Positions 9,605 to 60,613 are shown, counted from the first letter of the stretch. The stretch: 60,613 nt of DNA from Pseudomonadota bacterium (GCA_052035915.1 JBPOHE010000007.1:1-60613); one strand, 5' to 3'. The notes: generated by a model from the letters alone, not told the origin. Made by a program: numbers and translations.

Positions 9605-9754
9605 TACCATTTCTTGATAGGTATTATCGATATTCGTAGGCTGGTGTTGAGGCGCGAAGCGCTGAAACCCAGCTTCTGAGTAGCTGGGATTCGCTTCGCT
9701 CATCGCCAGCCTACCCCATGACTTTCAGGCGGATAAACTAATAGGAAATGGTAT
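9604..9754. repeat. MITE-like repeat family A, copy 1 (151 bp)
   Basis: Perfect 10-bp terminal inverted repeats (ATACCATTTC ... GAAATGGTAT). An internal long hairpin is based on GCGAAGCGCTGAAACCCAGCT; it is partly deleted in this copy. Near-identical to 14639-14792 in the same orientation. Confidence 0.85.
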
Positions 9755-9970
9755 GAGATCCTCTTCCGATCCCTGATCAACACTGGACACCAGCACGCGA
9801 CCGGGGGTGAAGGGGAAGCTGATAACAATGTTTATGTACTAATGATATTTTGTTGAATATTTTTATGTAGCAATGCTTCTACCGCCCATGCCCGGGGCCT
9901 TTTGGGTCGATAAGCGGGTTGTCGTCGCCGGCTCGTCCTTCTCGGACTCTATCCAGCATGAGAGAACACC

Positions 9971-10372
9971 ATGAGCATCGAAGAGGAACATCAAGACGTC
10001 CTGCAGAATATCGAGTTCGTCGTCACCCAGATCTATAGACGCCATCCAACATTGACCGACTACGGCGTTCTGCGCGCCTACGAGGCCCTGGTTCAAACCT
10101 ATACCGCGGAACTCTCGGGACGTCCGCCGAAGCCGTTGATGTTACAAGGAGGGCCTGAAGGGGTGATGCTGGAGAACCTCAGAATCATCTGTGAATGGCG
10201 TCTGGGTCGGATCAACAGGCCAAACGCCGCGGGCCGGGGAGAACAGTCAGAGCCCATTGATATTCCGACCCTGATTCAATGCCTGAAAAGGCTCATCAAG
10301 TCCGTCAACAAGTGGAACAAAAGCGGCGGCCAACAAGGGTACCTGCACTTCATGACGCAATTTATCCATTGA
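9971..10372 (+). CDS. hypothetical protein (133 aa)
   Basis: Clean ORF preceded by an AT-rich stretch and followed by a perfect 18-bp palindrome (10384-10401, ACAGGCCGATCGGCCTGT). I recognise no motif. It is the only plus-strand gene in the accessory segment. Confidence 0.5.
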   Translation: MSIEEEHQDVLQNIEFVVTQIYRRHPTLTDYGVLRAYEALVQTYTAELSGRPPKPLMLQGGPEGVMLENLRIICEWRLGRINRPNAAGRGEQSEPIDIPTLIQCLKRLIKSVNKWNKSGGQQGYLHFMTQFIH

Positions 10373-10640
10373 GGGCTCGGACGACAGGCCGATCGGCCTG
10401 TGGTGGGTTGGCTTCGCTTATCAGCCTCACCAAGAGACGGCTGCCTCAGCCCTCTATACGCTGGTTCCCAAGCTCCAGCTTGGGAACCACTGCGTGGCAA
10501 GCTCTTGCTTACCGACCTTCGACATTCCCAAGGAGGACCTTGGGAACGAGCGGACCTCCTGTCATCACTGCTTGACTGTGAACAACTCCTCTTCAGGGTT
10601 CACGATGTTTGCATGTGCGATTGCCCTGTTGATGGTGGCG

Positions 10641-10692
10641 ATTAAACATGCGTGCGATTAGGCTACGCCAATCGCACCTACGGCCCTTTAAT
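10641..10692 (-). repeat. attC-like / REP-like imperfect palindrome downstream of TA cassette 1
   Basis: Minus-strand reading: TATTAAAGGGCCGTAGGTGCGATTGGCGTAGCCTAATCGCACGCATGTTTAAT. The toxin stop codon lies inside the first arm. A related copy with conserved arms and a variable centre is at about 59545-59600. Confidence 0.4.
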
Positions 10693-10972
10693 ACACCTCG
10701 TCGTGGGTGCCAATATCATGCAAAATGATGACTTCACATCCTGTTTTCTCATCGATTTCAATGGAGAAAACAATGCGGCAATCATAGCCACGGGAGCAGG
10801 CCCACAATCCCAGCAGAGCACCGCTAAGTTTATGCGTTCACGGGGCAGGCGCAAATACATCCGCCTGCATTCGCCGAAGCACCTCATCAATATAATCTTG
10901 CAACTTGGGAGTCTGTTTTCCAAATTTCCGATAGGCTCGCCGAAATCTTGGCGTGATAACCAACAGCCTCAT
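10688..10972 (-). pseudogene. RelE/YafQ-family toxin gene interrupted by an in-frame TGA (codon 45)
   Basis: Hand translation: MRLLVITPRFRRAYRKFGKQTPKLQDYIDEVLRRMQADVFAPAP*THKLSGALLGLWACSRGYDCRIVFSIEIDEKTGCEVIILHDIGTHDEVY*. The C-terminal half is the classic RelE/YafQ signature. The stop is at 10838-10840. The ATGA start/stop overlap with the antitoxin is preserved. Confidence 0.75.
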
Positions 10973-11199
10973 TCATCATCCTCAAGCGTCCGATGCAACT
11001 CGGCAATGGCCTCTTCTGCAGATTGCGCCTTGAATTGGCCATCGCGGAAAGCCGCTATTGACTTATTAGCATCGACCATGATTTCCTGCCGCCGGGTTTC
11101 AATCCGGCGCTTGCTTAGAATGTCGATCAGCATTTCTTGCTGATCTGGCGGAAGTTGCAAAACGGTATTAATGGCTTGATCCAAGGTTATGGCATTCAT
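10969..11199 (-). CDS. type II antitoxin (partner of the RelE/YafQ-like pseudogene)
   Basis: 76 aa from MNAITLDQAINTVLQLPPDQQEMLIDIL..., with an AAGGAG Shine-Dalgarno sequence 8 nt upstream. The acidic C-terminus and the 4-nt ATGA overlap with the toxin start are typical. The longer 11277 start lacks an RBS. Confidence 0.7.
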   Translation of the reverse strand: MNAITLDQAINTVLQLPPDQQEMLIDILSKRRIETRRQEIMVDANKSIAAFRDGQFKAQSAEEAIAELHRTLEDDE

Positions 11200-11303
11200 C
11201 GTTTCCACAATCTCCTTGCTTTCATTACAGCCGTAGAAGGTACGCGATGCGTACCCTACGAGGCTCTCCTGCGTCACGCATGCGTTCGGGTGGGATCATG
11301 AGT

Positions 11304-11359
11304 TCTAACGCCTGCCTCAGCCGCGAGCGTAGCGAGTCGTCTGGAGGCGCATGTTAGGA
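11304..11359 (-). repeat. attC-like recombination-site candidate
   Basis: Minus-strand reading: TCCTAAC-ATGCGCCTCCAG...CTGAGGCAGGC-GTTAGAA. This has an inverse-core-like YYTAAC and a core-like GTTAGR, with imperfectly paired inner arms. It is 56 nt long and lies between the two TA cassettes. Confidence 0.5.
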
Positions 11360-11477
11360 AATTACGTGTATTCTCTGGTTGCATTCAGCGTCGTTGGATG
11401 TTGGGTTGGCGATACGGCCGCCAACCCAACCTATGGTGCTGGGTCCGAGTGAAAGCGCAGGTTAGCTTTCAAATTCA

Positions 11478-11729
11478 TCAGTAGATTTCTCGACGATGGC
11501 CTATTGCAATAACGATCACAACTAACTGTTCGTCGTGGATTTCGTAGATGACTCTGAAATCGCCAATTCGGATTCGCCACGCATCTCTACCTGTGAGTTT
11601 CTTGCTGCCGACTGGTCTTGGATTGTGGGAAAGCGCTTTTACCTGATCAGCAATCTCTGCTCGACGGACTTTATCAATTTTTGCAAGGGACTTCTGCGCG
11701 CTTCGAGTGATTGAGATCGATTAGCTCAT
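11478..11729 (-). pseudogene. RelE/ParE-family toxin gene with TAA at codon 3
   Basis: Hand translation: MS*SISITRSAQKSLAKIDKVRRAEIADQVKALSHNPRPVGSKKLTGRDAWRIRIGDFRVIYEIHDEQLVVIVIAIGHRREIY*. This is the canonical RelE/ParE pattern (RIRIGDYRVIYEI...IGHR.EIY). The stop is at 11721-11723, and there is no downstream ATG/GTG/TTG near the N-terminus. Confidence 0.75.
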
Positions 11730-11932
11730 GAGCTGACATCAGTATCTATCTCGTTCAGTGCCTGATCAAAAGGGATTATCTCGTCGCTAGTGAGTTTAGC
11801 TTCGTCGTAAGCCTTTATGTCTTCGAGTTCCTCTATGGCGCTGAGGATTTCCCGCCATTCATTAATGGGTAAGACTACGGACTTAGGAGTCTGATTAGAG
11901 TCGACAATGTATTCTGGATGAAGAATGTTCAT
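11726..11932 (-). CDS. type II antitoxin (Phd/YefM-like by pattern)
   Basis: 68 aa: MNILHPEYIVDSNQTPKSVVLPINEWREILSAIEELEDIKAYDEAK... The ATGA overlap with the toxin start is present. Confidence 0.7.
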   Translation of the reverse strand: MNILHPEYIVDSNQTPKSVVLPINEWREILSAIEELEDIKAYDEAKLTSDEIIPFDQALNEIDTDVSS

Positions 11933-11984
11933 GGTGTGTACCTATTGTAACCACGCTTCGGATTTCGACTAGTTTAGTAGGTCG

Positions 11985-12040
11985 AAAAAACACAGTGTTG
12001 CCCGACATTTTATAGAAGATGTCGGGCACAGGTGCCCGAC
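11985..12040 (-). terminator. tandem hairpins plus T-run downstream of the two-gene operon
   Basis: On the minus strand, right after the TAG at 12041, come two hairpins. They are GTCGGGCAC-CT-GTGCCCGAC and TGCCCGACAT-cttctataaa-ATGTCGGGCA, followed by ACACTGTG-TTTTTT. Confidence 0.5.
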
Positions 12041-13159
12041 CTACCGGGCTGTCTTCACTCTATGTTTTTCGTAGGCTTCCATTTTGTATCTTTCTAAAGA
12101 CTCAATAACCAGTTTACTGACTGTGCTTCTGGTTAATCCTTCTTCATTTGCTTCTAATCTGAGCATCGAAAGATTAAGCGTCAACTCGCCCCCCGCAGAC
12201 TCATCCTTATCAGAAAACTCAAATAGTATTCTGCATGTTCCAGAGCAATTATCGCCTTCAAACTCATAATCACATTGAAGCCCGAACAATCGGATATACG
12301 GATGAATGGATTTATCACTGACGAAAAATGTCGAGTGAAGCCCCTGTCCCTTCATCTTCATGTCTTCGATCTTATCCTTCATCCACGCAATATTCTGCGG
12401 CGGGTTAGCAACGCTGTGATCTGGTGAAAAATGAATGTCCCTGGTGTCAACAAAGCGCAGCATTGAGTGACTTACGTTTTGGGTGAGATCATTCATAAAT
12501 TGTACGCGTGATTCATTCGTGAAGTCTGAATACCTGATTATTGTTACGCCGACACTTTGTTTGATGTGCCCTTCGCTTTTGAAGTGCTTTATCAAAGCAC
12601 TTGAGACTTTGTTTCCGAAGTCGATTGTTTCTGGTGCGGTATGGCTTAGCGAAATGTTTAAGGACTTACCATCGTTGCTTTTCCGTATTTCAACACGGCC
12701 CCCATGTGTGACTGTGTTTTCTCCCCAGTTCTTAACTGGATCACGTCTATCAATCTCGAAATCCATGTAGATGTGATCTGGATTATCATTTGATGCAGTA
12801 AAATTTGACATACTTGAAAGACTGAATACACCAAACTGGTCATTCAGAAGAGTCTCGTAGTCAGCCATATCTGGCAAAGACTCAAGCAAGTTGGATTCAG
12901 AATCCCAGCTAATAGTGCGAGTTTTAGATTTTGGCGATTCCTCTTTTGTCCTATAGCTCTCGCGCAAGTCCACGTACTCAAAGGGAGACAGCCCGGTCTT
13001 GATGAGAATGGGGCCTAGAACTTCCTTCTGATCTGACCCTGTAAATACCCCTCTTGCGCGCAAAACGTTTTTTAATTCGGCGTTCTTAACCTTTGTCTGG
13101 CCAATTAGCTGGCGCAAAAAATCCCTAGTAGGAAGCAAGACCTCTTCGTTGTTATTCAT
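12041..13159 (-). CDS. hypothetical protein B (372 aa), second gene of AT-rich operon
   Basis: Clean 372-aa ORF with a start ATG inside ATGAATAA, an 8-nt overlap with the upstream gene. Sampled lines are 32-50% GC, against about 63% in flanking core genes. I recognise no catalytic or nucleotide-binding motif. Confidence 0.8.
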   Translation of the reverse strand: MNNNEEVLLPTRDFLRQLIGQTKVKNAELKNVLRARGVFTGSDQKEVLGPILIKTGLSPFEYVDLRESYRTKEESPKSKTRTISWDSESNLLESLPDMADYETLLNDQFGVFSLSSMSNFTASNDNPDHIYMDFEIDRRDPVKNWGENTVTHGGRVEIRKSNDGKSLNISLSHTAPETIDFGNKVSSALIKHFKSEGHIKQSVGVTIIRYSDFTNESRVQFMNDLTQNVSHSMLRFVDTRDIHFSPDHSVANPPQNIAWMKDKIEDMKMKGQGLHSTFFVSDKSIHPYIRLFGLQCDYEFEGDNCSGTCRILFEFSDKDESAGGELTLNLSMLRLEANEEGLTRSTVSKLVIESLERYKMEAYEKHRVKTAR

Positions 13160-14102
13160 TATTCAAGCTCCTGTAGTCTGGCCGAAAGCTAGCTACTTTT
13201 ATCCGGGTAAAGATATCGCTCTCAAAACCTGTGGCAGCCCTCTTGACTGCATCACCATGACTAGACTCAACATAATTAGGAAATAGAAACAGCAACGTGC
13301 AACTCATGTCTTGAGTGTATTCTTTGGCTGCTTGGATTAGCCTGCGCAGAGAGTCTTGCGCAAAACCTTCTATGGTAGACAGACAGAAAATATCCTGATC
13401 ATGCCGGGACTGTGCCTTAATGATTAGCGGAATCAAAGGTGAGGTCAGAAATTCAAGCGGACATACCTTTCCATATCTCGATATGGTTTTGTCAACATAA
13501 CTTAGTGAAGTCTCAGGATAATAAAAGTGCAGGCGATCGGAGTCGTACTCATGTCTCAAATACTGCACGGTGTCGAATATAAAGTTTATTCTCTGATTAT
13601 CAACCACATGAAACGACTCAAAGCTCCAATCGGAATCAAGTTGTGAGTTTGCAATTTTTGATACGACATCATCATATGTTTCTTCGTTACTCGATAGCCA
13701 GAACAATACCCCGGAATCCCTACTTTTCGTTGTTCGCCCCAACAATTCCTGCTGTTGCTTTTTTAACTCTGAATGTTTGTAACACTCCAAGGTTTCGACT
13801 AAGTCCTTGGCGTGCGATTTGAAAGTCGACTTTGGATTGTTTTCGTACGGGTTTTGTGAATGCTTAACAGATATTACCGCGCTTTCGGCAGTCGAGCCTT
13901 CAAGTGGGCTTCTATAGCAGTACAAATAGTCAATTCCATGTGTTTCTCTTTTTCCAGTCTTTGACCCTTCACTGGCATGTTTGCTTGGCTTTCTACATGG
14001 CAGTTCTTGCCCAGATAAAACGCCTTCCCACCCCAATAAATGGAAGAAATTGCCAACGATATTCTCGCCAATTTCTCCAATTTTTTTAGATTTTTCACCC
14101 AT
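13152..14102 (-). CDS. hypothetical protein A (316 aa) with PD-(D/E)xK-like (Mrr/DUF4365-like) N-terminal region
   Basis: The N-terminus is KKIGEIGENIVGNFFHLLGWEGV ... THGIDYLYCYRSP ... AVISVKHS. This resembles the helix (GE..E) / beta (G-I-D) / beta (S-V-K) core of restriction-endonuclease-fold proteins (E13, D58, S78-x-K80). I recognise nothing in the C-terminal 180 aa. AT-rich. Confidence 0.8.
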   Translation of the reverse strand: MGEKSKKIGEIGENIVGNFFHLLGWEGVLSGQELPCRKPSKHASEGSKTGKRETHGIDYLYCYRSPLEGSTAESAVISVKHSQNPYENNPKSTFKSHAKDLVETLECYKHSELKKQQQELLGRTTKSRDSGVLFWLSSNEETYDDVVSKIANSQLDSDWSFESFHVVDNQRINFIFDTVQYLRHEYDSDRLHFYYPETSLSYVDKTISRYGKVCPLEFLTSPLIPLIIKAQSRHDQDIFCLSTIEGFAQDSLRRLIQAAKEYTQDMSCTLLFLFPNYVESSHGDAVKRAATGFESDIFTRIKVASFRPDYRSLNNE

Positions 14103-14180
14103 TGCAAGTTCCTTTCACCAATCTGCGGGTTGGATTTTTATGCATAACATGTAATCGACGACATCGTCTTCCTACCAAAA

Positions 14181-14198
14181 GTATCTAAATCTAGATAC
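14181..14198. promoter_or_regulatory. palindrome GTATCTA-AATC-TAGATAC about 80 nt upstream of protein A (possible operator)
   Basis: 7-bp perfect arms, seen directly in the AT-rich leader of the operon. The role is inferred only. Confidence 0.3.
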
Positions 14199-14499
14199 CA
14201 ACCCTTACCCCAATGGTCCTCCATCAGCTCCCACCCTGGATCCCAACCCCGGGGCTACGGCATTTTCGTAGCCTGACTTCCACAACCGCGGATGAGGTCG
14301 CCATATCCATCCAGCCTGATTGACCTCGTTGCGCCGATCGATCTCCCAATATTCCACCCGAGCTGTACGCCACGCAGGCCGGGCACTTTATGGGATGCCC
14401 GACATTTTCCATTGAATCCCTGGACAAGGCCAGGCTTTGGCCCAACCTTCTACATCACTCCCTAACAGCTGAGATAACCTTGAAGAGTCAGGTTTTGGC

Positions 14500-14625
14500 G
14501 TTCCCGGGCATGGGCGGTTTAGCCCGATTTTTCCTTCTCCTAGAGAGAACAATGCCCCATCATGAATGGGCATATGTTCTCTTTAGAAGAACGAAGAATG
14601 GCCGTTTGGGGCCCATGCCCGGAAC
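14500..14625. repeat. MITE-like repeat family B copy (paired TGTTCTC/GAGAACA palindromes)
   Basis: Terminal inverted repeats GTTCCCGGGCATGGGC ... GCCCATGCCCGGAAC. The core is TTCTCCTAGAGAGAACAATGCC...GCATATGTTCTCTTTAGAAGAAC. Confidence 0.7.
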
Positions 14626-14638
14626 CTGGAAGGGCCTC

Positions 14639-14792
14639 ATACCATTTCTCGATAGGTATTATCGATATTCGTAGGCTGGTGTTGAGGCGCGAAGCGCTGA
14701 AACCCAGCTTCTCAGTAGCTGGGTTTCAGCGCTTCGCTCATCGCCAGCCTACCCCATGGCTTTCAGGCGGATAAACTAATAGGAAATGGTAT
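14639..14792. repeat. MITE-like repeat family A, copy 2 (154 bp)
   Basis: Same TIRs as copy 1. It carries the full 21-bp-stem hairpin GCGAAGCGCTGAAACCCAGCT-tctcagt-AGCTGGGTTTCAGCGCTTCGC. It is in direct orientation relative to 9604-9754. Confidence 0.85.
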
Positions 14793-14861
14793 CAGCGACT
14801 AGCTCGGCCATCCTTTGCCGAGGTTCCCTGAAACACCCGAGCCCTTCCCCGCGACCAAGGC

Positions 14862-16409: not shown

Positions 16410-16657
16410 CTCCCCCTCCCCTTTTGGTTCAAGATTCATCCTCCGGCAGCGCCCGATAATAGGCCGCCTCCGGATACCCGTAGGGTGCGCAAAGCGCACC
16501 AGAATGGTGGGCGATGCTTCGACTTCGCTCAGCACAGGTGCCCACCCTAGCGTTCCCGGGCACCACAGGCACAGCGGCGCCCAGCACCACCCCGGCACAC
16601 AGCCACAAGAAATACCGTCGATCCGCCTCCCATTCATCTGTGTTCATACTCTCCTCC

Positions 16658-52666: not shown

Positions 52667-52784
52667 CCGGGCATCGACGGCCAATGGCCGATTTCCGTTC
52701 TAATACAGAGAACAATATATCAATATCTCGCGGTATTGTTCTCTAATGGAGAACAAAAACCGGCCCAACACAGCCAGGCCCGGG
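52667..52784. repeat. MITE-like repeat family B copy
   Basis: Ends are CCGGGCATCGACGG...CCAGGCCCGGG. The core is CAGAGAACAATATAT...TTGTTCTCTAATGGAGAACAA. Confidence 0.7.
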
Positions 52785-54688: not shown

Positions 54689-55064
54689 CTTCTTATCGCT
54701 CCTCATAACCATACCGGGGCTTGGTGACGGGTTATCGGGCTGTCGCCGCTTGGAAGCCTGGCTCCTCCTGCCTTCCTGGTGACAACAAGCCGAACCCGGA
54801 TATCGCCAAGTATAAGATGGCACCAGCGGGACAACATCCCAGGTCACCAAGGGTTTTCCCGGATATTCCCTCCTCTCCCCTTTCGCCACGCCGTCCTGCC
54901 CCTGTCCCCGGCCACTGGCTAAGCCGGGGAATGTGTGGAAGGATCCGGGGCGCGCCTGCTGTGAAAGTCCCTGGCCCAACCGGCGGCGGAAGCGGTTCTC
55001 TCGAACCCGGCCACCACAACAGCCAGGCGGCAACGAAACCCAAGGTCAATGAGGAGAGAAGGTC

Positions 55065-56051
55065 ATGAAATCGAAGCTTTTGCTTGGCTTGTTGTTGGCG
55101 TCGGTCCTGAGCCTGTCGGCCCATGGGGACGAAAACCAGATCCGTATCGCCGGCGGGCCGGCCACCGGCGAATATATCAATATCGCCAGATCCCTGTGCG
55201 CCTCCCTGGGAAAGCTGTTCCAGTGTCAACCGACGGAAACCGCCGGTACCCTGGACAACCGCAAGCGATTGGAGGCCGGGCAGGCGGAATTCGGCCTCGC
55301 CAAGAGTAATGCCGCGGATGACTGGATGAAGGATCCGACCTTTGCCGCCAAGCATACGATCGTGCGCCGGATCGGCGACGAATCCCTGTTCGTGTTCGCC
55401 AAACCGGAGATCCTGCAGGCCGCGGGCAGTTGGCTGGGGGTGCGCGAGAACGCCTTTCTGTTGAGCCTCGGCCTGCCGGGCGAACTCTCTGGCGATGCGA
55501 CAGTATTCAACGCCCTGAAGTCGGTGCCTGGTTCACCCCTCGCCAATATAGAGGTCAAGATGTTCCCGGATCGCCCGGCGCTGGTCGAGGCGGTAAAAAC
55601 CGGTAAGGTCAAGCTGGGTTTCATCACCCAGGTGCCCAACCCCACCAACCCCCTCTTCGCCTCCATCAATGAATCCGGGCTCATGATCATGGGCGTGGTG
55701 GATCCGGACATGATCACCTTCGGCGAGACCTTCCGCATCAAGCCGGTCACGGTGAAGAATGCCAAATGGTTCGGCCTCGGCGGCGGTGCCCATCAGATCG
55801 AGACCGCCAATGTCCCCGCCGCCATAGTCGCGGTGAAACCCGAGACCCTGCAGGGACGCGCGGCCATGGTGCAACAGGCCGCCATCAAGCGGATCCAGGA
55901 GGCCAAGGAGGCCGAGCTGCTGCCGCAGCAAAGCTGGATGCAGGAACTCGCCAATACCACTTCCTTGAAGGCCGGGGCCGGTCTGGAGAATGCCATGAAG
56001 TCCATGGAAAAGGCCGCCGCCGGGGCCAAGGAGCGGCTCGGCAAACTCTGA
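55065..56051 (+). CDS. periplasmic solute-binding protein (TAXI/PhnD-like fold, tentative)
   Basis: Signal peptide MKSKLLLGLLLASVLSLSAHG, then IRIAGGPATGEYINIARSL..., a pattern similar to TAXI-type receptors. The C-terminal 70 aa are helical and A/K/E-rich. Confidence 0.5.
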   Translation: MKSKLLLGLLLASVLSLSAHGDENQIRIAGGPATGEYINIARSLCASLGKLFQCQPTETAGTLDNRKRLEAGQAEFGLAKSNAADDWMKDPTFAAKHTIVRRIGDESLFVFAKPEILQAAGSWLGVRENAFLLSLGLPGELSGDATVFNALKSVPGSPLANIEVKMFPDRPALVEAVKTGKVKLGFITQVPNPTNPLFASINESGLMIMGVVDPDMITFGETFRIKPVTVKNAKWFGLGGGAHQIETANVPAAIVAVKPETLQGRAAMVQQAAIKRIQEAKEAELLPQQSWMQELANTTSLKAGAGLENAMKSMEKAAAGAKERLGKL

Positions 56052-56555
56052 GCCGCAAGATTGTGGCTCGCCGGAACGACCGCCTCGACCTGGCGCGTCG
56101 TCCCGGCGCAAGCCAACGCGCCCTGACCTCGGGATGAGCCAGGGGGGCAGGGTTCTGAACCACCGACGGCTCATCGACTCCCGGGCCTCCTGCTCCTCCC
56201 TCTCCCGGGGAGACGGGGTGATGATGTATGTCATTGGGAGAAGAGCCTTTCCGTGGCACCCTTGCGCTTTTCCCGAGGGACGAAGTGACCGCGCCCAACA
56301 GCCTCCGCCAAGAGAAGGGCCGTTGAGGCGATAGTTTGACAGCGGTCCTCCCGGCTTCGAGCCGGTATTCCGCGTCTGGACGAAGGTCCGCAACCAAGCG
56401 ACGAGTCACTGACGCCGAGGATCCCGGACCCGCTTGTTTGCACACCCCGGCCACAGACACAGCATCGATAATGTCGTTTTCCCTAAATACACCACCTATG
56501 CAATGGTCAGTTTAGCCCCCAGGCCCGCTCGCCCCGGCCCACAGGAACATCTCCC

Positions 56556-59009
56556 ATGATCCGTCGAGAGTGGCTGGTTCACTTGGTCAGCGGCGTCCTC
56601 ATTTGCGGGATGGCGGTGGCCGCCTGGTTCGGCGAGCGGCTCAACAACGAGCGGCATACCGCCCAGGTCCGCGCCGCCACCCAGGAACGCTTGAACGAGC
56701 TACGCAGCCGGTTGGAAAACAATCTCCTCAGCAACATCCAACTGAGCCAGGGGCTGGTCAGCGTGATCGCCGCCAACCCGCGCCTGACCCAGGAAGAATT
56801 CATCCGCTCCGCCAGGCCTTTATTCGATGGCGGATCCCAATTGCGCAACATCGGCGCCGCCCCGAACATGGTGATTCGTCTGATGTATCCGCTGGTGGGC
56901 AATGAAAAGGCGATCGGGCTCGATTTCCGTCGTACCCCGAATCAGTTCGAGACCGCGGACCTGGCCCGTCGAACCGGGCGCCTGGTGTTGGCCGGACCGC
57001 TGGAGCTGGCGCAGGGCGGGTCCGGCCTCGTGGCCCGCATCCCGGTCTTCCTCGATGGAGACAGCGGGGAGAAAGCGTTTTGGGGACTGATCTCCAGCGT
57101 GATCGACACCCAGAGGCTGTTCGCGGACAGCGGGCTCCTCAGCGACCGATTGCCGATCGAATTGGCGATCCGGGGCAAGGATGCCGGTGGCCCCCGGGGC
57201 GAGGTCTTTTTCGGGCGCGCCAGCCTGTTCGACGAGGAACCTATCGCGGCCATCATCCCTCTCCCCCTCGGTTCCTGGGTGTTGGCGGCGGTGCCGGTCG
57301 GCGGTTGGCCCCAGCAGGCGGACAATGCCTGGTGGTTGCGTGGGGTCTTCCTGCTGGTGGCCGTCCTCGTCTTCGGTCCCATCTTCGCGTTGGGAAGAGC
57401 CCTGCGGGCTACCGAACACGCCCGGCGCCGGGCGGACACCGGCGCCTCCCGCCTGGTGGCCACCCTGGAAAACACCCCCAATGTCGCCGTGCAGTGGTAC
57501 GACCAGAATGGTCGCGGGAACTACTGGAATCAGGCATCTGAACGCTTGTTCGGCTGGTCGTCACAGGAGGCGGTCGGCCAGACGCTCGATCGACTCATTC
57601 TCAAGGCCGAAGAGATGGAAGCTTTCTTGTCCACCATGACGCAGATCGCCGGGAGCGGTCAGACCATAGGTCCGGTCGAGTTCGGCATCCACCATCGTGA
57701 CGGCTCGCCCCGCCAGGCCCTCTCCACCATCTTTCCCATTCCCGGGGATGACCGACCGCTCTTCGCGCGCATGGACGTCGACATCACCTGGCAAAAACAG
57801 GTCGAACAGGACCTCATCGCCGCCCGCGACGAAGCGCAGAAGGCCTATCGGGTCAAATCCGACTTTCTCGCCAATATGAGCCATGAGATCCGCACCCCGA
57901 TGAATGCCATCATCGGCTTCAGCCACCTGGGTCTTGCCGCGACCTCGGCGGAAAAAATGCGGGAGTATCTGGACAAGGTGTATGTCTCCTCGACCAATCT
58001 TCTTGGCATCATCAACGACATCCTCGACTTTTCCAAGATCGAGGCCGGCAAACTGGAACTCGAAATCGCCCCCTTTCAGCTCCGACGACTGGTGTGGGAG
58101 ATCCGCGACACCATGGAGCTGGAAGCCGAGGCCAAGGGACTGCGGCTCGAGTTCCAGATCGCCGAGGAGGTGCCGGATCCGCTGCTGGGGGATAGCCTGC
58201 GGCTACGCCAGGTGATCACCAATCTGATCTCCAATGCGGTCAAGTTCACCGCCCAGGGCCACATCCGGGTGAGCGCCGAGTTGGTCTCCCGGGTGGAGGA
58301 TCAGCTCCGGCTCAGGTTCTCCGTCGCCGATACGGGGATAGGTATGACCGCCGAGGAACAGGGTCGGTTATTCCGCGCCTTCAGCCAGGCGGACAGCTCC
58401 ACCACCCGGAGATACGGGGGTACGGGGCTGGGTCTGGCCATCAGTCGACAACTGGTGGAGATGATGGGTGGAAAGATCAGCCTCCTCAGTGAACCTGGCC
58501 AAGGCAGCACCTTCAGTTTCACCATCAACCTCGAAGTGAATCCCGAGCCCCATGAGCCCGCCCATATCCTCAACTCCGGCTCTTCACCGGCGGCGATACT
58601 GGAACAGGCTGCCGCCCTGTTGCGGGGCCTGCGGGTGCTGTTGGTGGAGGACAATGTCGTCAACCAGTTGCTGGCCCAGGCGATGCTGGACAAGGTCGGC
58701 ATCCTGGTCGAGCTCGCCGTCAACGGGCGCGAGGCGGTGGAGAAGCTGAGACGATCCCCCGACTACGACCTGGTGTTGATGGATATCCAGATGCCGGAAA
58801 TGAACGGCTATGAGGCGACCGGCCTCATCCGTCGCCAACTCGGCTTGACCGCCTTGCCCATCATCGCCATGACCGCCCACGCCATGAGCGAGGAACGCAC
58901 CCGCTGCCTGGATACAGGCATGGACGACATCATTACCAAACCGATCGACGTCAAATTGCTCTATGCCAAATTGGCGGAGTACCGCCAAGCGCGACCTTCC
59001 AACCGCTAG
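56556..59009 (+). CDS. hybrid sensor histidine kinase/response regulator with periplasmic CHASE-like domain and PAS domain
   Basis: A TM helix is followed by a CHASE-like region (NIGAAPNMVIRLMYPLVGNEKAIGLDF...VLAGPLELAQGGSGLVARIPVF) and a second TM helix. Then come a PAS domain, the H-box SHEIRTPMNAIIGF, N/G boxes (NLISNAVKFT, DTGIGM, GGTGLGLAI) and REC (LVLMDIQMPEMNG...KP). Confidence 0.9.
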   Translation: MIRREWLVHLVSGVLICGMAVAAWFGERLNNERHTAQVRAATQERLNELRSRLENNLLSNIQLSQGLVSVIAANPRLTQEEFIRSARPLFDGGSQLRNIGAAPNMVIRLMYPLVGNEKAIGLDFRRTPNQFETADLARRTGRLVLAGPLELAQGGSGLVARIPVFLDGDSGEKAFWGLISSVIDTQRLFADSGLLSDRLPIELAIRGKDAGGPRGEVFFGRASLFDEEPIAAIIPLPLGSWVLAAVPVGGWPQQADNAWWLRGVFLLVAVLVFGPIFALGRALRATEHARRRADTGASRLVATLENTPNVAVQWYDQNGRGNYWNQASERLFGWSSQEAVGQTLDRLILKAEEMEAFLSTMTQIAGSGQTIGPVEFGIHHRDGSPRQALSTIFPIPGDDRPLFARMDVDITWQKQVEQDLIAARDEAQKAYRVKSDFLANMSHEIRTPMNAIIGFSHLGLAATSAEKMREYLDKVYVSSTNLLGIINDILDFSKIEAGKLELEIAPFQLRRLVWEIRDTMELEAEAKGLRLEFQIAEEVPDPLLGDSLRLRQVITNLISNAVKFTAQGHIRVSAELVSRVEDQLRLRFSVADTGIGMTAEEQGRLFRAFSQADSSTTRRYGGTGLGLAISRQLVEMMGGKISLLSEPGQGSTFSFTINLEVNPEPHEPAHILNSGSSPAAILEQAAALLRGLRVLLVEDNVVNQLLAQAMLDKVGILVELAVNGREAVEKLRRSPDYDLVLMDIQMPEMNGYEATGLIRRQLGLTALPIIAMTAHAMSEERTRCLDTGMDDIITKPIDVKLLYAKLAEYRQARPSNR

Positions 59010-59129
59010 CCGCCAGGGTTGGCGCCCTTGGCTGGATTGGGCAGGCACACCTGGTTACCCGGCATGTGGTGATACCTAGACGTCGGGCAACGGAGCCCGA
59101 CTGGCCTGGCATTACAGGAATGGGTATCG

Positions 59130-59260
59130 CGCCCGGTCGTTCTGGGCCTCGACTGAAAAAGGCTTGTTTTCGTTCTTTTATGAAGAACAATACCTCAATA
59201 TAACCGTTATTATTCTCTATTTGAGAACAATAACGCTTCCAAAACCGCCACCCCCGGCCC
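59130..59260. repeat. MITE-like repeat family B copy (degenerate ends)
   Basis: The core is GTTCTTTTATGAAGAACAATACC...ATTATTCTCTATTTGAGAACAATAA. The ends are less clear than in the other copies. Confidence 0.55.
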
Positions 59261-59616
59261 TCCCCGAAAAGGGAAAAAGGAAACAGATCAAAGGGAAGAA
59301 GCCAATATCCTGGCCAGACGAAAACCCCAGGGGGAAGTCCCAGCGGCGTAGGTTGGGTTGACACCGTCAACCCAACATTCCAAGCAGCGCCGGGGAGAAA
59401 TGTTGGGTTGCGCAATACGCAACCCAACCTACGATACTTGTTAGGCCATTTTCAGGTTTCATAATTTAGCTTGGTCCCTTTTCAACTTTTCCCAAACGGA
59501 TCAGCTCGCGTAGCTCCGATTAGCGACAGCGTAATCGGAGGAATGTAGCTTTCATGCGTGCGATTACACTAGGGTAATCGCACCTACGGTCCTTTGGTGG
59601 TTGCACGTGCAAGCCT

Positions 59617-59685
59617 CCTAACACGTTCAAATTAACCGGCCTGCGCGGCTTTTCGCGCAGGTCCGATTGAATGCTGGGTTAGGGC
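59617..59685 (-). repeat. attC-like site at the 3' end of the Mrr-like cassette
   Basis: Minus-strand reading: GCCCTAAC-CCAGCATTCAATCGGACCTGCGCG-aaaag-CCGCGCAGGCCGGTTAATTTGAACGT-GTTAGGA. The TAA stop of the ORF lies inside the CCCTAAC inverse-core-like box. GCCCTAA is complementary to the TTAGGGC that begins the cassette at 60236-60242. Confidence 0.6.
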
Positions 59686-60230
59686 ACAGCGGGTTCATCG
59701 ATAAGAGCATGGCGCAAATACTCCGGATGTTGGCGAGAGGCTACAGAATGCCTGTTACCGTCGATGAGCCAACCGATGACTGGCTCAATGTTGGCCCACG
59801 GCGGTGGTTCGCTCGGGCCGCCAAGGGACTTTGTGAAATAGCTTGTGCGCCCTTCGGCCAATTGGACGGTTGCGATGCCGTGAGCCTTCGCAAACTCCAG
59901 AGCACCTGATTGAAAGCCAGAGCTAGAAAAGACCATGCCCTTCTGGGCACCAACCGACAATAGCTTGCTGTGAAGGCTCTGAATGACTTCGCGCTTCACC
60001 GGATTTTTGTAGTGCTTACACTCGACAAGCACCAGAAACTCAGCATCAAGAGCGCCGAAGCGAACGGTGACATCGATTTCGTAGTCTCCGTCGTGCCCTT
60101 CGACAACCTCGCGGTGTTGAGAGTCGTATCCGTGTAGGTTGAGGCCAAGAACATCAAGCATTGCCTTTACCTCAAGCTCAAATTGCTCAGGTGTAAGTTG
60201 GATCGGTGGATATTGGCCAAGGCGCGGCAT
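59679..60230 (-). CDS. Mrr-type (PD-(D/E)xK) restriction endonuclease domain protein
   Basis: 183 aa. FELEVKAMLDVLG...GDYEIDVTVRF...FLVLVECKHYKNPVKREVIQ...GMVFSSSGFQSGA fits the Mrr_cat core (D ... E-x-K). There is no adjacent methyltransferase. Confidence 0.75.
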   Translation of the reverse strand: MPRLGQYPPIQLTPEQFELEVKAMLDVLGLNLHGYDSQHREVVEGHDGDYEIDVTVRFGALDAEFLVLVECKHYKNPVKREVIQSLHSKLLSVGAQKGMVFSSSGFQSGALEFAKAHGIATVQLAEGRTSYFTKSLGGPSEPPPWANIEPVIGWLIDGNRHSVASRQHPEYLRHALIDEPAVP

Positions 60231-60235
60231 GCTGT

Positions 60236-60314
60236 GCCCTAACGTAGAGTTAACCGGTGGCCAAGACGACGCGAAGCGGCGTTTTGGGCGTTCGGATTGA
60301 ACGCCATGTTATAT
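60236..60314 (-). repeat. attC-like site upstream of the Mrr-like cassette
   Basis: Minus-strand reading: ATATAAC-ATGGCGTTCAATCCGAAC...CCACCGGTTAACTCTAC-GTTAGGGC, then 5 nt, then the ORF ATG. It shares conserved arms (TTCAATCSGA / CCGGTTAA) and a variable centre with 59617-59685. Confidence 0.55.
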
Positions 60315-60613
60315 CAATTGTCGTTATGACTTACCACTTTCAAAGCCAGATAGGGTCCGCTGTGCGGACCAAACATTCCAACGAAAACGAGGCGGGGAGA
60401 AGGGCCGTAGGGCCGTAGGGCGCAATAGGCGGTAGCCGTATTGCGCCGCATGGCTTTGGGTTTGATATCCGGCGCAATACGCTTCGCTATTGCGCCCTAG
60501 TGTGCCCGGCATGGGCCAAGACTTGTAGCCTGAAAGGAGGCTACCGGAGAGAGTGACGACAACCGTAGAGAAGCGCAAGGGGGAAGCCGCGAGGCCAGCC
60601 TGAAAGAAGCGTG

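What the first reader, a model, noticed from the sequence alone, without database searches (positions are those of the whole stretch)
59617..60314. Textbook-looking gene cassette: Mrr-type endonuclease bounded by two related attC-like sites with complementary core boxes
In the ORF orientation the unit begins with GTTAGGGC, then 5 nt, then ATG. It ends with GCCCTAAC, which contains the TAA stop, followed by an imperfect palindrome closing in GTTAGGA. TTAGGGC at the 5' end is the exact complement of GCCCTAA in the 3' site. This is expected if the cassette was circular and recombined at G/TT. The two sites share conserved arms (TTCAATCSGA and CCGGTTAA) but have different centres, as attC families do. 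A solitary Mrr-like nuclease with no methylase is a plausible methylation-dependent defence cargo.
Basis: partly seen in the sequence, partly recalled or inferred. Interest (0 to 1): 0.6.

Follow-up and report, generated by a model that had tools for sequence, protein, structure and literature searches.

The report
Integron gene cassette carrying Mrr-like nuclease
This is a genuine but ordinary integron gene cassette: a 621-base mobile unit with one small Mrr-type nuclease gene between two attC recombination sites, in a short, decaying cassette cluster with no integrase in view.

Summary
The complementary boxes extend to a perfect 13-nt inverted repeat (60231-60243 / 59678-59690).

I built a covariance model only from attC sites of integrase-linked arrays in other genomes. 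In the whole 60.6-kb window it finds the downstream site (42 bits, E 3e-8), the upstream site (23.7 bits, E 1e-3) and one further site at 11303-11359.

Homologous cassettes occur in at least five unrelated contexts. Homology starts at (G)TTAG and ends at G|TT in each. There are compensatory changes between the cassette's 5' end and its own R'' box, and in the L boxes.

A 53%-identical homologue is a cassette in a complete Luteimonas integron with a confirmed IntI.

The ORF is a 183-aa stand-alone Mrr_cat nuclease with intact D...ExK residues and no Mrr N-terminal DNA-binding domain. A defence role is inferred.

No integrase is visible. The window is the whole contig, and it ends inside a multi-copy group II intron inserted into a REP element. 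The locus is best called a two-attC CALIN-like cluster, or the distal end of an array.

It is a new member of a known kind and of low to moderate interest.

The parts
59622..60242 (-). The gene cassette proper, 621 nt. It runs from the TT of the upstream R' (TTAGGGCACAGC-ATG...) to the G of the downstream R' (...TTGAACGTG).
   Evidence: Homology with the cassettes in L001, L005, L006, L008 and L083 begins at (G)TTAG and ends at G|TT, while the flanks are unrelated.
59679..60230 (-). 183-aa ORF: a stand-alone Mrr_cat (PD-(D/E)xK) nuclease with a conserved C-terminal extension of about 55 aa. D53, E70 and K72 are invariant among the aligned homologues.
   Evidence: Pfam PF04471, E 6.4e-16. PADLOC matches only the nuclease part of the mREase_IV models. 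In alignment A3 the N-terminus is conserved, which supports the ATG at 60230 rather than the 160-aa start annotated in the source record. The best fold match is AF1548, an Mrr-like protein, from a model with pLDDT 67.
59616..59684 (-). The cassette's own attC site. Top strand: R'' CCCTAAC, CCAGC, L'' ATT[C]AATCGG, stem CCTGCGCG / CGCGCAGG, L' CCGGTTAAT, spacer TTGAACGT, R' GTTAGGA.
   Evidence: Model R1: 42 bits, E 2.6e-8, full length, on the bottom (+) strand, with bulged G and T. The site folds as a hairpin with z -4.5. The reconstituted circular form folds at -30 kcal/mol, z -7.3. The site is conserved together with the gene in five contexts.
60237..60314 (-). Upstream attC site, belonging to a preceding ORF-less cassette remnant. 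Top strand: R'' ATATAAC, ATGGC, L'' GTT[C]AATCCG ... L' CCGGTTAAC, TCTAC, R' GTTAGGG.
   Evidence: Model R1: 23.7 bits, E 9.9e-4, on the same strand. A related site precedes the cassette in L001. On its own its minimum-energy fold is not a single hairpin, so this is the weaker of the two sites.
60231..60243 (.). Left arm of the perfect 13-nt inverted repeat (the cassette 5' end plus the G of R'). Its partner is 59678-59690.
   Evidence: I12. Covariation across eight cassettes.
59678..59690 (.). Right arm of the 13-nt inverted repeat: R'' plus its 5' extension, which encodes the last residues AVP and the stop codon.
59434..59621 (-). ORF-less stretch after the cassette, beginning TTAGGAGG and ending at an R''-like GGCCTAAC (59447->59440). 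It may be a decayed terminal cassette and it contains a REP pair at 59510-59590.
   Evidence: Sequence. No significant R1 match here; the best hits nearby have E 0.33 to 3.5.
59347..59433 (.). REPIN-like doublet of GTAG-headed hairpins with stem GTTGGGTTG, bounding the attC cluster on the chromosomal side.
   Evidence: (I4, I17, I18). The same REP recurs at 11396-11434 and in metagenome contigs.
60416..60499 (.). REPIN-like doublet with stem GGCGCAATA, bounding the cluster on the other side.
   Evidence: (I10).
60500..60613 (+). The first 114 nt (GTGTGCCCGG...) of a multi-copy group II intron inserted into the REP head (CCTA|). This is the reason the contig ends here.

Best explanation
The region is an integron gene cassette. 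It is a 621-nt promoterless unit (60242->59622, minus strand) with one ORF, a 183-aa stand-alone Mrr_cat nuclease, and its own attC recombination site at the 3' end. It sits immediately after the attC of a preceding, now ORF-less, cassette.

Mechanism, taken from established integron biology and inferred here: an integron integrase (IntI) binds the folded bottom strand of attC. It recognises the R and L boxes and the extrahelical G and T, and cuts between G and TT of R'. The cassette is excised as a circle in which its 5' end (TTAGGGCACAGC) pairs with its own R'' region. The circle can reinsert at an attI site, where the Pc promoter expresses it.

In this genome the two attC sites form a short cluster without a visible integrase: either a CALIN or the distal end of an array. 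The cluster lies 0.6 kb from a chromosomal histidine-kinase gene. It has been invaded by host REPINs and a REP-targeting group II intron, so it is probably old and possibly inactive.

The protein most likely acts as a small nuclease effector in defence against foreign DNA, possibly modified DNA. That role is inferred from the domain and from the known enrichment of small restriction-type genes in cassettes. It has not been shown.
For: **attC identity**
- Model R1 was built only from attC sites in the arrays of Luteimonas (full IntI: TIGR02249, 489 bits against a cutoff of 265), Limnobacter (truncated intI), L022 and L006.
- Searching the whole window on both strands without filters gives 59616-59684 at 42 bits (E 2.6e-8) and 60240-60311 at 23.7 bits (E 1e-3). 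Both are on the + (bottom) strand and sit at the cassette ends. Apart from one further site, the next best match has E 0.19.

**Boundaries**
- Orthologous cassettes (73-87% protein identity) occur on a conjugative plasmid (L001), in a Ramlibacter chromosome (L005), on a Nitrospiraceae contig inside a cassette array (L006), in Gallionellaceae (L008) and in L083.
- They share DNA only from (G)TTAG to G|TT.

**Structure**
- Across eight cassettes the 5' end and R'' pair in 92% of cells, with 7 of 13 pairs compensatory.
- The L boxes covary (AACCGG/CCGGTT versus GAGCGG/CCGCTC), and the extra C in L'' (a G on the bottom strand) is conserved.
- The reconstituted circular attC folds at -30 kcal/mol, z -7.3.

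**Family context**
- A 53%-identical homologue is a cassette, about the ninth, of the complete Luteimonas integron and shows the same 12/12 end complementarity.
- A near-identical type of attC follows a different cargo gene in the Limnobacter array (L024:16412-16478).

**Foreign DNA**
- GC content falls from 0.62 to 0.52 beyond 59010.

**Cargo**
- Pfam Mrr_cat; invariant D53/E70/K72; PADLOC type IV REase nuclease domain.

**Literature**
- Small type II and IV restriction genes and Mrr_cat proteins are prevalent defence cargo of cassettes (10.1101/2024.07.02.601686; 10.1101/2024.07.02.601719).
Against: - No IntI, attI or Pc was found. tblastn with an IntI1 probe gives nothing in the window, and the contig ends 300 nt upstream of the first attC.
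- The upstream attC scores only 23.7 bits. It has two L-box mismatches, and its minimum-energy fold is not one hairpin.
- The downstream attC has an 8-nt spacer before R', against 6 nt in orthologues (a GT insertion). This may reduce activity.
- R1 E-values are rough because calibration was shortened. The IntegronFinder model itself was not run.
- No sigma-70-like promoter was found upstream on the minus strand, so expression here is uncertain.
- A near-identical population carries a frameshifted copy of the gene, which suggests weak selection.
- Nuclease activity, methylation dependence and defence are all untested.
Confidence: 0.9

Rival explanations
1. The two sites belong to a complete, active chromosomal integron whose intI, attI and further cassettes lie just beyond the contig end. 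On this reading the window shows only the distal end of the array.
For: The cassette points away from the contig end, so an intI would lie beyond 60613, and a chromosomal gene follows the last attC as at the distal end of an array. Assemblies often break in repeats, and here the break is in a group II intron. Homologues do sit in complete integrons.
Against: The 300 nt upstream of the first attC hold no further attC, only a REPIN and the intron. In the related population (L081) the segment is likewise bounded by intron copies about 100 nt from the attC. Several orthologous cassettes sit in clusters of 1-3 attC sites without an integrase (L005, L008, L045). A lone attC elsewhere in the window (11303-11359) shows that this genome holds scattered attC sites.
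Confidence: 0.25
2. The hairpins are ordinary host repeats (REP/BIME) or terminators flanking a resident chromosomal nuclease gene, and the complementary boxes are coincidental or part of the repeat consensus.
For: The neighbourhood is full of real REP hairpins and REPIN doublets. The single short motifs are not individually beyond chance.
Against: The attC arm motifs occur only at the two sites in 60 kb. The host REPs have a different architecture (GTAG head plus a perfect 9-10 bp stem) and different sequences. The downstream site travels with the gene across phyla. An attC model from other genomes hits it at E 3e-8. The 13-nt complementarity covaries.
Confidence: 0.02
3. The gene is the passenger of a small transposon-like element defined by the 13-bp terminal inverted repeats (GTTAGGGCACAGC ... 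GCTGTGCCCTAAC) and moved by a transposase in trans.
For: A perfect 13-bp inverted repeat brackets the ORF exactly and is conserved in inverted form in relatives. Conservation of that kind would also be expected of transposon terminal repeats.
Against: The conserved mobile unit extends 56-60 nt beyond the 3' repeat, through the hairpin to G|TT, in every context. No direct repeats (target-site duplications) flank the inverted repeat: the flanks are CTCTAC and CCAGCA. The repeat begins with the integron core GTTRRRY. The same gene family sits in canonical arrays beside IntI.
Confidence: 0.03

Closest known systems
Integron gene cassettes and attC sites of sedentary chromosomal integrons of Xanthomonadales and Betaproteobacteria. 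Examples seen here: the Luteimonas deserti array (L016) and the Limnobacter humi array (L024).
   Same: R''/R' cores of the RYYYAAC/GTTRRRY type. L boxes ATTCAA(G/T)C(C)G / CGG(C/T)TTAAT with extrahelical G and T on the bottom strand. A single promoterless ORF whose stop codon lies in R''. Crossover at G|TT. The cassette 5' end is complementary to its own R''. The central stem CCTGCGCG-AAAAGC-CGCGCAGG is nearly the same as in L024:16412-16478.
   Different: No IntI, attI or Pc is visible. Only two attC sites are present. The spacer before R' is 8 nt. The end complementarity is 13 bp rather than about 7. The cluster is invaded by REPINs and a group II intron.
[quoted passage not shown]
   Same: Two or more attC sites lie closer than 4 kb on the same strand, with no integrase in the available 60.6 kb.
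   Different: The status cannot be settled because the contig ends 300 nt upstream. IntegronFinder itself was not run.
E. coli Mrr and type IV methyl-directed restriction enzymes (PADLOC mREase_IV). Small restriction-type defence cassettes are a related comparison: Brc142 in mobile integrons and Epona (Mrr_cat fused to a holin domain) in the Vibrio cholerae superintegron.
   Same: A Mrr_cat PD-(D/E)xK catalytic domain with D...ExK residues. No partner methyltransferase. Carried in an integron cassette, as are the published small defence genes.
   Different: Only 183 aa. It lacks the N-terminal winged-helix DNA-binding domain of Mrr: the PADLOC and Pfam matches cover only the nuclease part. Instead it has a conserved C-terminal extension of about 55 aa with no family match. 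No activity or phenotype is known.

Membership tests
Integron gene cassette / attC site | R'' (RYYYAAC) and R' (GTTRRRY) core boxes at the two ends of the site | tested here: met
   Downstream site: CCCTAAC / GTTAGGA. Upstream site: ATATAAC / GTTAGGG. Each box matches 6 of 7 consensus positions, and AAC and GTT are exact.
Integron gene cassette / attC site | Imperfect L''/L' inverted repeats giving a bottom-strand hairpin with extrahelical bases (G and T) | tested here: met
   Bottom strand of the downstream site: ATTAACCGG ... [T]CCGATT[G]AAT. The same two bulges occur in the 23 training attCs (87% of cells paired; covariation 0.384 against 0.129 in shuffles) and in the R1 alignments of both window sites. 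The upstream site has two L-box mismatches.
Integron gene cassette / attC site | Detection by an attC covariance model | tested here: met
   Custom model R1, built from IntI-linked arrays with no window sequence, scores 42 bits (E 2.6e-8) and 23.7 bits (E 1e-3), ranking first and third in the window. The IntegronFinder attC model is not available in these tools. Rfam gave no match at either site.
Integron gene cassette / attC site | The cassette is a discrete mobile unit bounded at G|TT and found in different contexts | tested here: met
   Five independent contexts share DNA only between (G)TTAG and G|TT.
Integron gene cassette / attC site | The cassette 5' end is complementary to its own R'', as expected from a circular intermediate | tested here: met
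   13/13 in the window. Across eight cassettes 92% of cells pair, 7 of 13 pairs are compensatory, and 0 of 500 shuffles reach this.
Integron gene cassette / attC site | Recombination by an integron integrase | not testable with these tools
   This needs an in vivo or in vitro recombination assay.
Complete integron | An intI gene (TIGR02249) with adjacent attI and Pc next to the array | tested here: inconclusive
   No IntI-like ORF in the 60.6-kb window (tblastn). The window is the whole contig, and it ends in a group II intron 300 nt from the first attC. The source genome is not among the genome contigs species representatives.
CALIN | Two or more attC sites within 4 kb and no integrase nearby | tested here: inconclusive
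   Two attC sites lie about 550 nt apart and no integrase is found on the chromosomal side. The other side is not sequenced.
Mrr / type IV methyl-directed restriction endonuclease | Mrr_cat PD-(D/E)xK catalytic domain with catalytic D, E and K | tested here: met
   PF04471, 58.9 bits against a cutoff of 21. D53, E70 and K72 are invariant in 25 homologues.
Mrr / type IV methyl-directed restriction endonuclease | An N-terminal DNA-recognition (winged-helix, Mrr_N-type) domain that reads modified DNA | tested here: not met
   The 183-aa protein matches only positions 171-275 of 317 of the PADLOC mREase_IV model. Pfam finds no second domain. NCBIfam gives no match.
Mrr / type IV methyl-directed restriction endonuclease | Cleavage dependent on DNA methylation; protection against phage | not testable with these tools
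   Needs biochemistry and phage assays.

The most novel reading that the evidence does not exclude
The 183-aa protein (Mrr_cat plus a conserved, unassigned C-terminal module of about 55 aa) could be an autonomous single-gene, methylase-free anti-phage or anti-plasmid system. It would have spread as one cassette, together with its attC, across at least four differently named lineages (this gammaproteobacterial sulfur oxidiser, Ramlibacter, Gallionellaceae, Nitrospiraceae) and a conjugative plasmid. The unusually long 12-13-bp pairing between the cassette's 5' end and R'' would be selected for a function. Candidate functions are stabilising the excised single-stranded circle, or occluding the start codon and the AGGG ribosome-binding site in transcripts.
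Probability: 0.25. Interest if true: 0.45.

Novelty: new member of a known kind. Interest (0 to 1): 0.28.

Why it matters
It adds one well-delimited cassette family to the catalogue of integron cargo: a minimal Mrr_cat nuclease with its co-travelling attC. Small restriction-type and other defence genes have recently been shown to be common in that cargo.

The set of orthologous cassettes in unrelated hosts gives clean natural covariation data for attC structure. It also offers a compact candidate for a defence screen.

It does not change how integrons are understood. The locus also illustrates how attC clusters decay in a chromosome through REPIN invasion, group II intron insertion and a frameshifted allele.

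Tried and rejected
- Looking up the exact 183-aa product found nothing. The source record annotates a 160-aa version, P0002, on a contig of exactly 60613 nt, so the window cannot be extended from its own record.
- An Rfam search of 55000-60613 found no relevant family.
- My rule-based R/L-box scanner was too permissive, with 9 hits against 3.1 in shuffles. I used it only to locate candidates and replaced it with model R1.
- I tried to extend the contig with a 30-mer from 60549-60578. This showed the contig end is a multi-copy group II intron rather than unique sequence. Contigs L098 and L103, which looked like extensions, are other genomic copies of the same REPIN plus intron.
- At first I read the inverted flanks of L081 as possible transposon ends. 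Rfam shows they are the 3' ends of group II introns.
- The contexts of P0005 (a plasmid carrying a TrwC relaxase) and P0012 (a region with conjugative-transfer genes) contain no integrase.
- The structure prediction was only moderate (pLDDT 67). It supports no more than a PD-(D/E)xK, Mrr-like fold.
- The R''-like GGCCTAAC at 59440-59447 could not be confirmed as a third attC.

Full report
**Observation**

On the minus strand the region reads GTTAGGGC-ACAGC-ATG, then a 183-codon ORF ending ...GCT GTG CCC TAA-C, then a hairpin region closing in GTTAGGA. A second, similar site lies upstream, ending in the GTTAGGGC that opens the unit.

The exact GCCCTAAC box occurs only at the two ends of the ORF. 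The end complementarity is longer than reported: a perfect 13-nt inverted repeat, 60231-60243 against 59678-59690 (I12).

**The ORF**

The ORF 59679-60230(-) is a Mrr_cat domain protein (PF04471, E 6e-16). The database holds more than 300 relatives, and the closest (73-87% identity) are all about 183 aa. Among 25 aligned homologues D53, E70 and K72 are invariant. The first 23 residues are conserved, which supports the ATG at 60230 rather than the shorter start annotated in the source record.

PADLOC matches only the nuclease portion of type IV methyl-directed enzymes. NCBIfam has no family for the protein. An AlphaFold model of moderate confidence (pLDDT 67) is closest to the Mrr-like protein AF1548 and to the nuclease domains of Can2 and MspJI.

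The protein is therefore a stand-alone PD-(D/E)xK nuclease domain with an unassigned, conserved C-terminal extension. It is not a full Mrr.

**Evidence that the unit is a mobile cassette**

The closest homologues sit in unrelated places:

- a conjugative plasmid with a TrwC relaxase (L001-L004);
- a Ramlibacter chromosome next to a hut operon (L005);
- a Nitrospiraceae contig, between other small cassettes (L006);
- a Gallionellaceae contig (L008);
- other short contigs (L083).

In all of them DNA similarity to the window starts at (G)TTAG, 12 nt before the ATG. It ends 56-60 nt after the stop codon, at ...CG|TT. Beyond these points the flanks are unrelated. This is the integron crossover point.

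The first 12-13 nt of each cassette are complementary to the R'' region of the same cassette, and they change together:

- TTAGGGCACAGC / GCTGTGCCCTAA in the window;
- TTAGAGCACTGC / GCAGTGCTCTAA in L005;
- TTAAGG / CCTTAA in L001;
- TTAGGTTTCAT / ATGAAACCTAA in L045.

Across eight cassettes, 92% of cells pair and 7 of 13 pairs show compensatory changes. None of 500 shuffles and no slid register come close.

The L boxes covary as well (AACCGG/CCGGTT, GAGCGG/CCGCTC, and ATT/AAT versus AGT/ACT). The extra C in L'' is conserved; on the recombinogenic bottom strand it is an extrahelical G.

**An attC model trained elsewhere**

A genome-collection scan with the protein alignment returned 67 loci. 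A tblastn probe found an integron integrase gene in two of them.

- Luteimonas deserti (L016) has a full IntI (TIGR02249, 489 bits against a cutoff of 265). It is followed by an attI-like junction and at least 26 cassettes with 60-nt attC sites. The Mrr homologue (53% identity) is about the ninth cassette and again shows 12/12 end complementarity.
- Limnobacter humi (L024) has a truncated intI and a heterogeneous array. One of its attC sites (16412-16478) is of almost the same type as the window's downstream site but follows a different gene.

I aligned 23 attC sites from these arrays and two others (A4). None came from the window, and none from the closely related (73-87% identical) Mrr cassettes. 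I imposed the canonical structure with its two bulges: 87% of cells paired, and covariation 0.384 against 0.129 in shuffles. From this I built model R1.

Searched without filters over both strands of the window, R1 gives:

- 59616-59684, 42 bits, E 2.6e-8;
- 11303-11359, 24 bits, E 8.6e-4;
- 60240-60311, 23.7 bits, E 9.9e-4;
- nothing else below E 0.19.

Both sites of the finding lie on the same strand and exactly at the cassette ends. R1 also recovers the attC sites of the orthologous cassettes in the other loci.

Rejoining the cassette's ends in silico gives a bottom-strand hairpin of -30 kcal/mol (z -7.3) with a 13-bp R stem.

**Context and state of the locus**

GC content falls from about 0.62 to about 0.52 at 59010, just after a convergent hybrid histidine-kinase gene.

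The window is the entire source contig. No IntI-like sequence is in it.

The 300 nt upstream of the first attC contain a short ORF-less stretch, a REPIN-like doublet (60416-60499), and from 60500 the start (GTGTGCCCGG...) of a multi-copy group II intron. The evidence for the intron is as follows:

- A 30-mer from this end matches 39 metagenome contigs, most of which break just after it.
- In each of the 38 contigs that show the junction, the element begins right after a REP-type hairpin that differs among contigs, mostly followed by CCTA.
- Rfam group II intron domains follow in the longer contigs.

Near-identical metagenome contigs (L081, L082, L102; 99.8% identity) show the same 984-nt two-attC segment. 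There, additional intron copies are inserted into both flanking REPINs, and the nuclease gene carries a 1-nt deletion.

The cluster is therefore embedded in host repeats and retroelements and shows signs of decay. No promoter-like site precedes the gene on its strand. I could not decide between a CALIN and the distal end of a complete integron, and I lean towards the CALIN.

**Caveats on the sites**

- The upstream attC is the weaker one, with two L-box mismatches, and competing local hairpins dominate its minimum-energy fold.
- The downstream attC has an 8-nt spacer before R' where its orthologues have 6.
- R1 E-values are approximate.

**Comparison with what is known**

This is a standard integron cassette in every feature I could test. 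The cargo fits the recently described pattern that cassettes are enriched in small, streamlined defence genes. That pattern includes type II and IV restriction enzymes and Mrr_cat-domain proteins (10.1101/2024.07.02.601686; 10.1101/2024.07.02.601719).

The host is an uncultured sulfur-oxidising gammaproteobacterium. Its SoxB is 75-78% identical to the closest named homologues, which are from Chromatiaceae, Sedimenticola and Thiodiazotropha.

**Verdict**

The finding is a new member of a known kind and of modest interest. The defence function remains an inference.

Noticed in passing
window 60500-60613 (+); loci L085-L123, L081: The contig ends in the 5' end (GTGTGCCCGG...) of a multi-copy group II intron. 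In 38 of the 39 metagenome contigs that carry it, the intron starts immediately after a REP-type hairpin; the hairpin differs among contigs and is mostly followed by CCTA, so the intron inserts into the GTAG head of REP elements. Rfam confirms D1-D4 in L113 and domains V-VI in L081. This behaviour fits IIC introns, which insert after terminators or other inverted repeats (PMC1702495).
   Followed up: partly
window 59347-59433, 59510-59594, 60416-60499, 10650-10690, 11396-11434, 11985-12040: Several REP families share a GTAG(G) head and the same architecture but have different 9-10 bp stems (GTTGGGTTG, GGCGCAATA, GTGCGATT, CTCCGATTA, GTCGGGCA). They often occur as inverted doublets (REPIN-like) of about 85 nt. 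They are concentrated in the two low-GC islands. No RAYT transposase gene was looked for.
   Followed up: partly
window 11303-11359 (bottom strand on +), within the low-GC island at about 9700-14800: A third attC-like site (R1 24 bits, E 8.6e-4): TCCTAAC-ATGC-GCCTC[C]AGAC...GGCTGAGGC-AGGC-GTTAGAA. It lies between a RelB-like (PF18506) antitoxin gene followed by an uncharacterised reading frame and a second possible toxin-antitoxin pair whose downstream reading frame carries an in-frame stop. A partial R''-L''-like arm (AGCTAAC CTGCGC TTTCACTCGGA) is interrupted by a REP hairpin. This looks like a lone attC or a decayed cassette cluster about 48 kb from the finding.
   Followed up: partly
L081 / L082 / L102 compared with window 59432-60415: A related population (99.8% identity) carries the same two-attC segment. 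It has group II intron copies in inverted orientation inserted into both flanking REPINs, and a 1-nt deletion that frameshifts the Mrr ORF (162-aa product).
   Followed up: yes
L024 9306-10651 and L022 around 9900-10612: In Limnobacter humi and Ramlibacter sp. 2FC the Mrr_cat homologue (56-57% identity) appears to share one cassette with an upstream ORF (about 230 aa in Limnobacter) of unknown function. No attC separates them in Limnobacter; the Ramlibacter case rests on similar sequence just upstream of the gene. This suggests a two-gene version of the system.
   Followed up: no
window 59166-59238 and 52686-52765; L103 13850-13915: Related palindromic motifs of the type TATTGTTCTC...GAGAACAATA recur in intergenic regions, one of them just downstream of the histidine-kinase gene. 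They may be binding sites for a regulator.
   Followed up: no
L005 9900-10000 and L045 9900-10000; L006 780-870 and L008 4520-4608: The sequences just upstream of the cassette are shared pairwise between unrelated hosts: CCAAGATAG(G/A)CGCT(T/C)GGCTACATCAC|GTTAG in L005 and L045, and TTATGCGGA...TAAT(C/G)A(T/C)T|GTTAG in L006 and L008. Model R1 does not recognise them as attC. They may be attI-like or secondary insertion sites.
   Followed up: no
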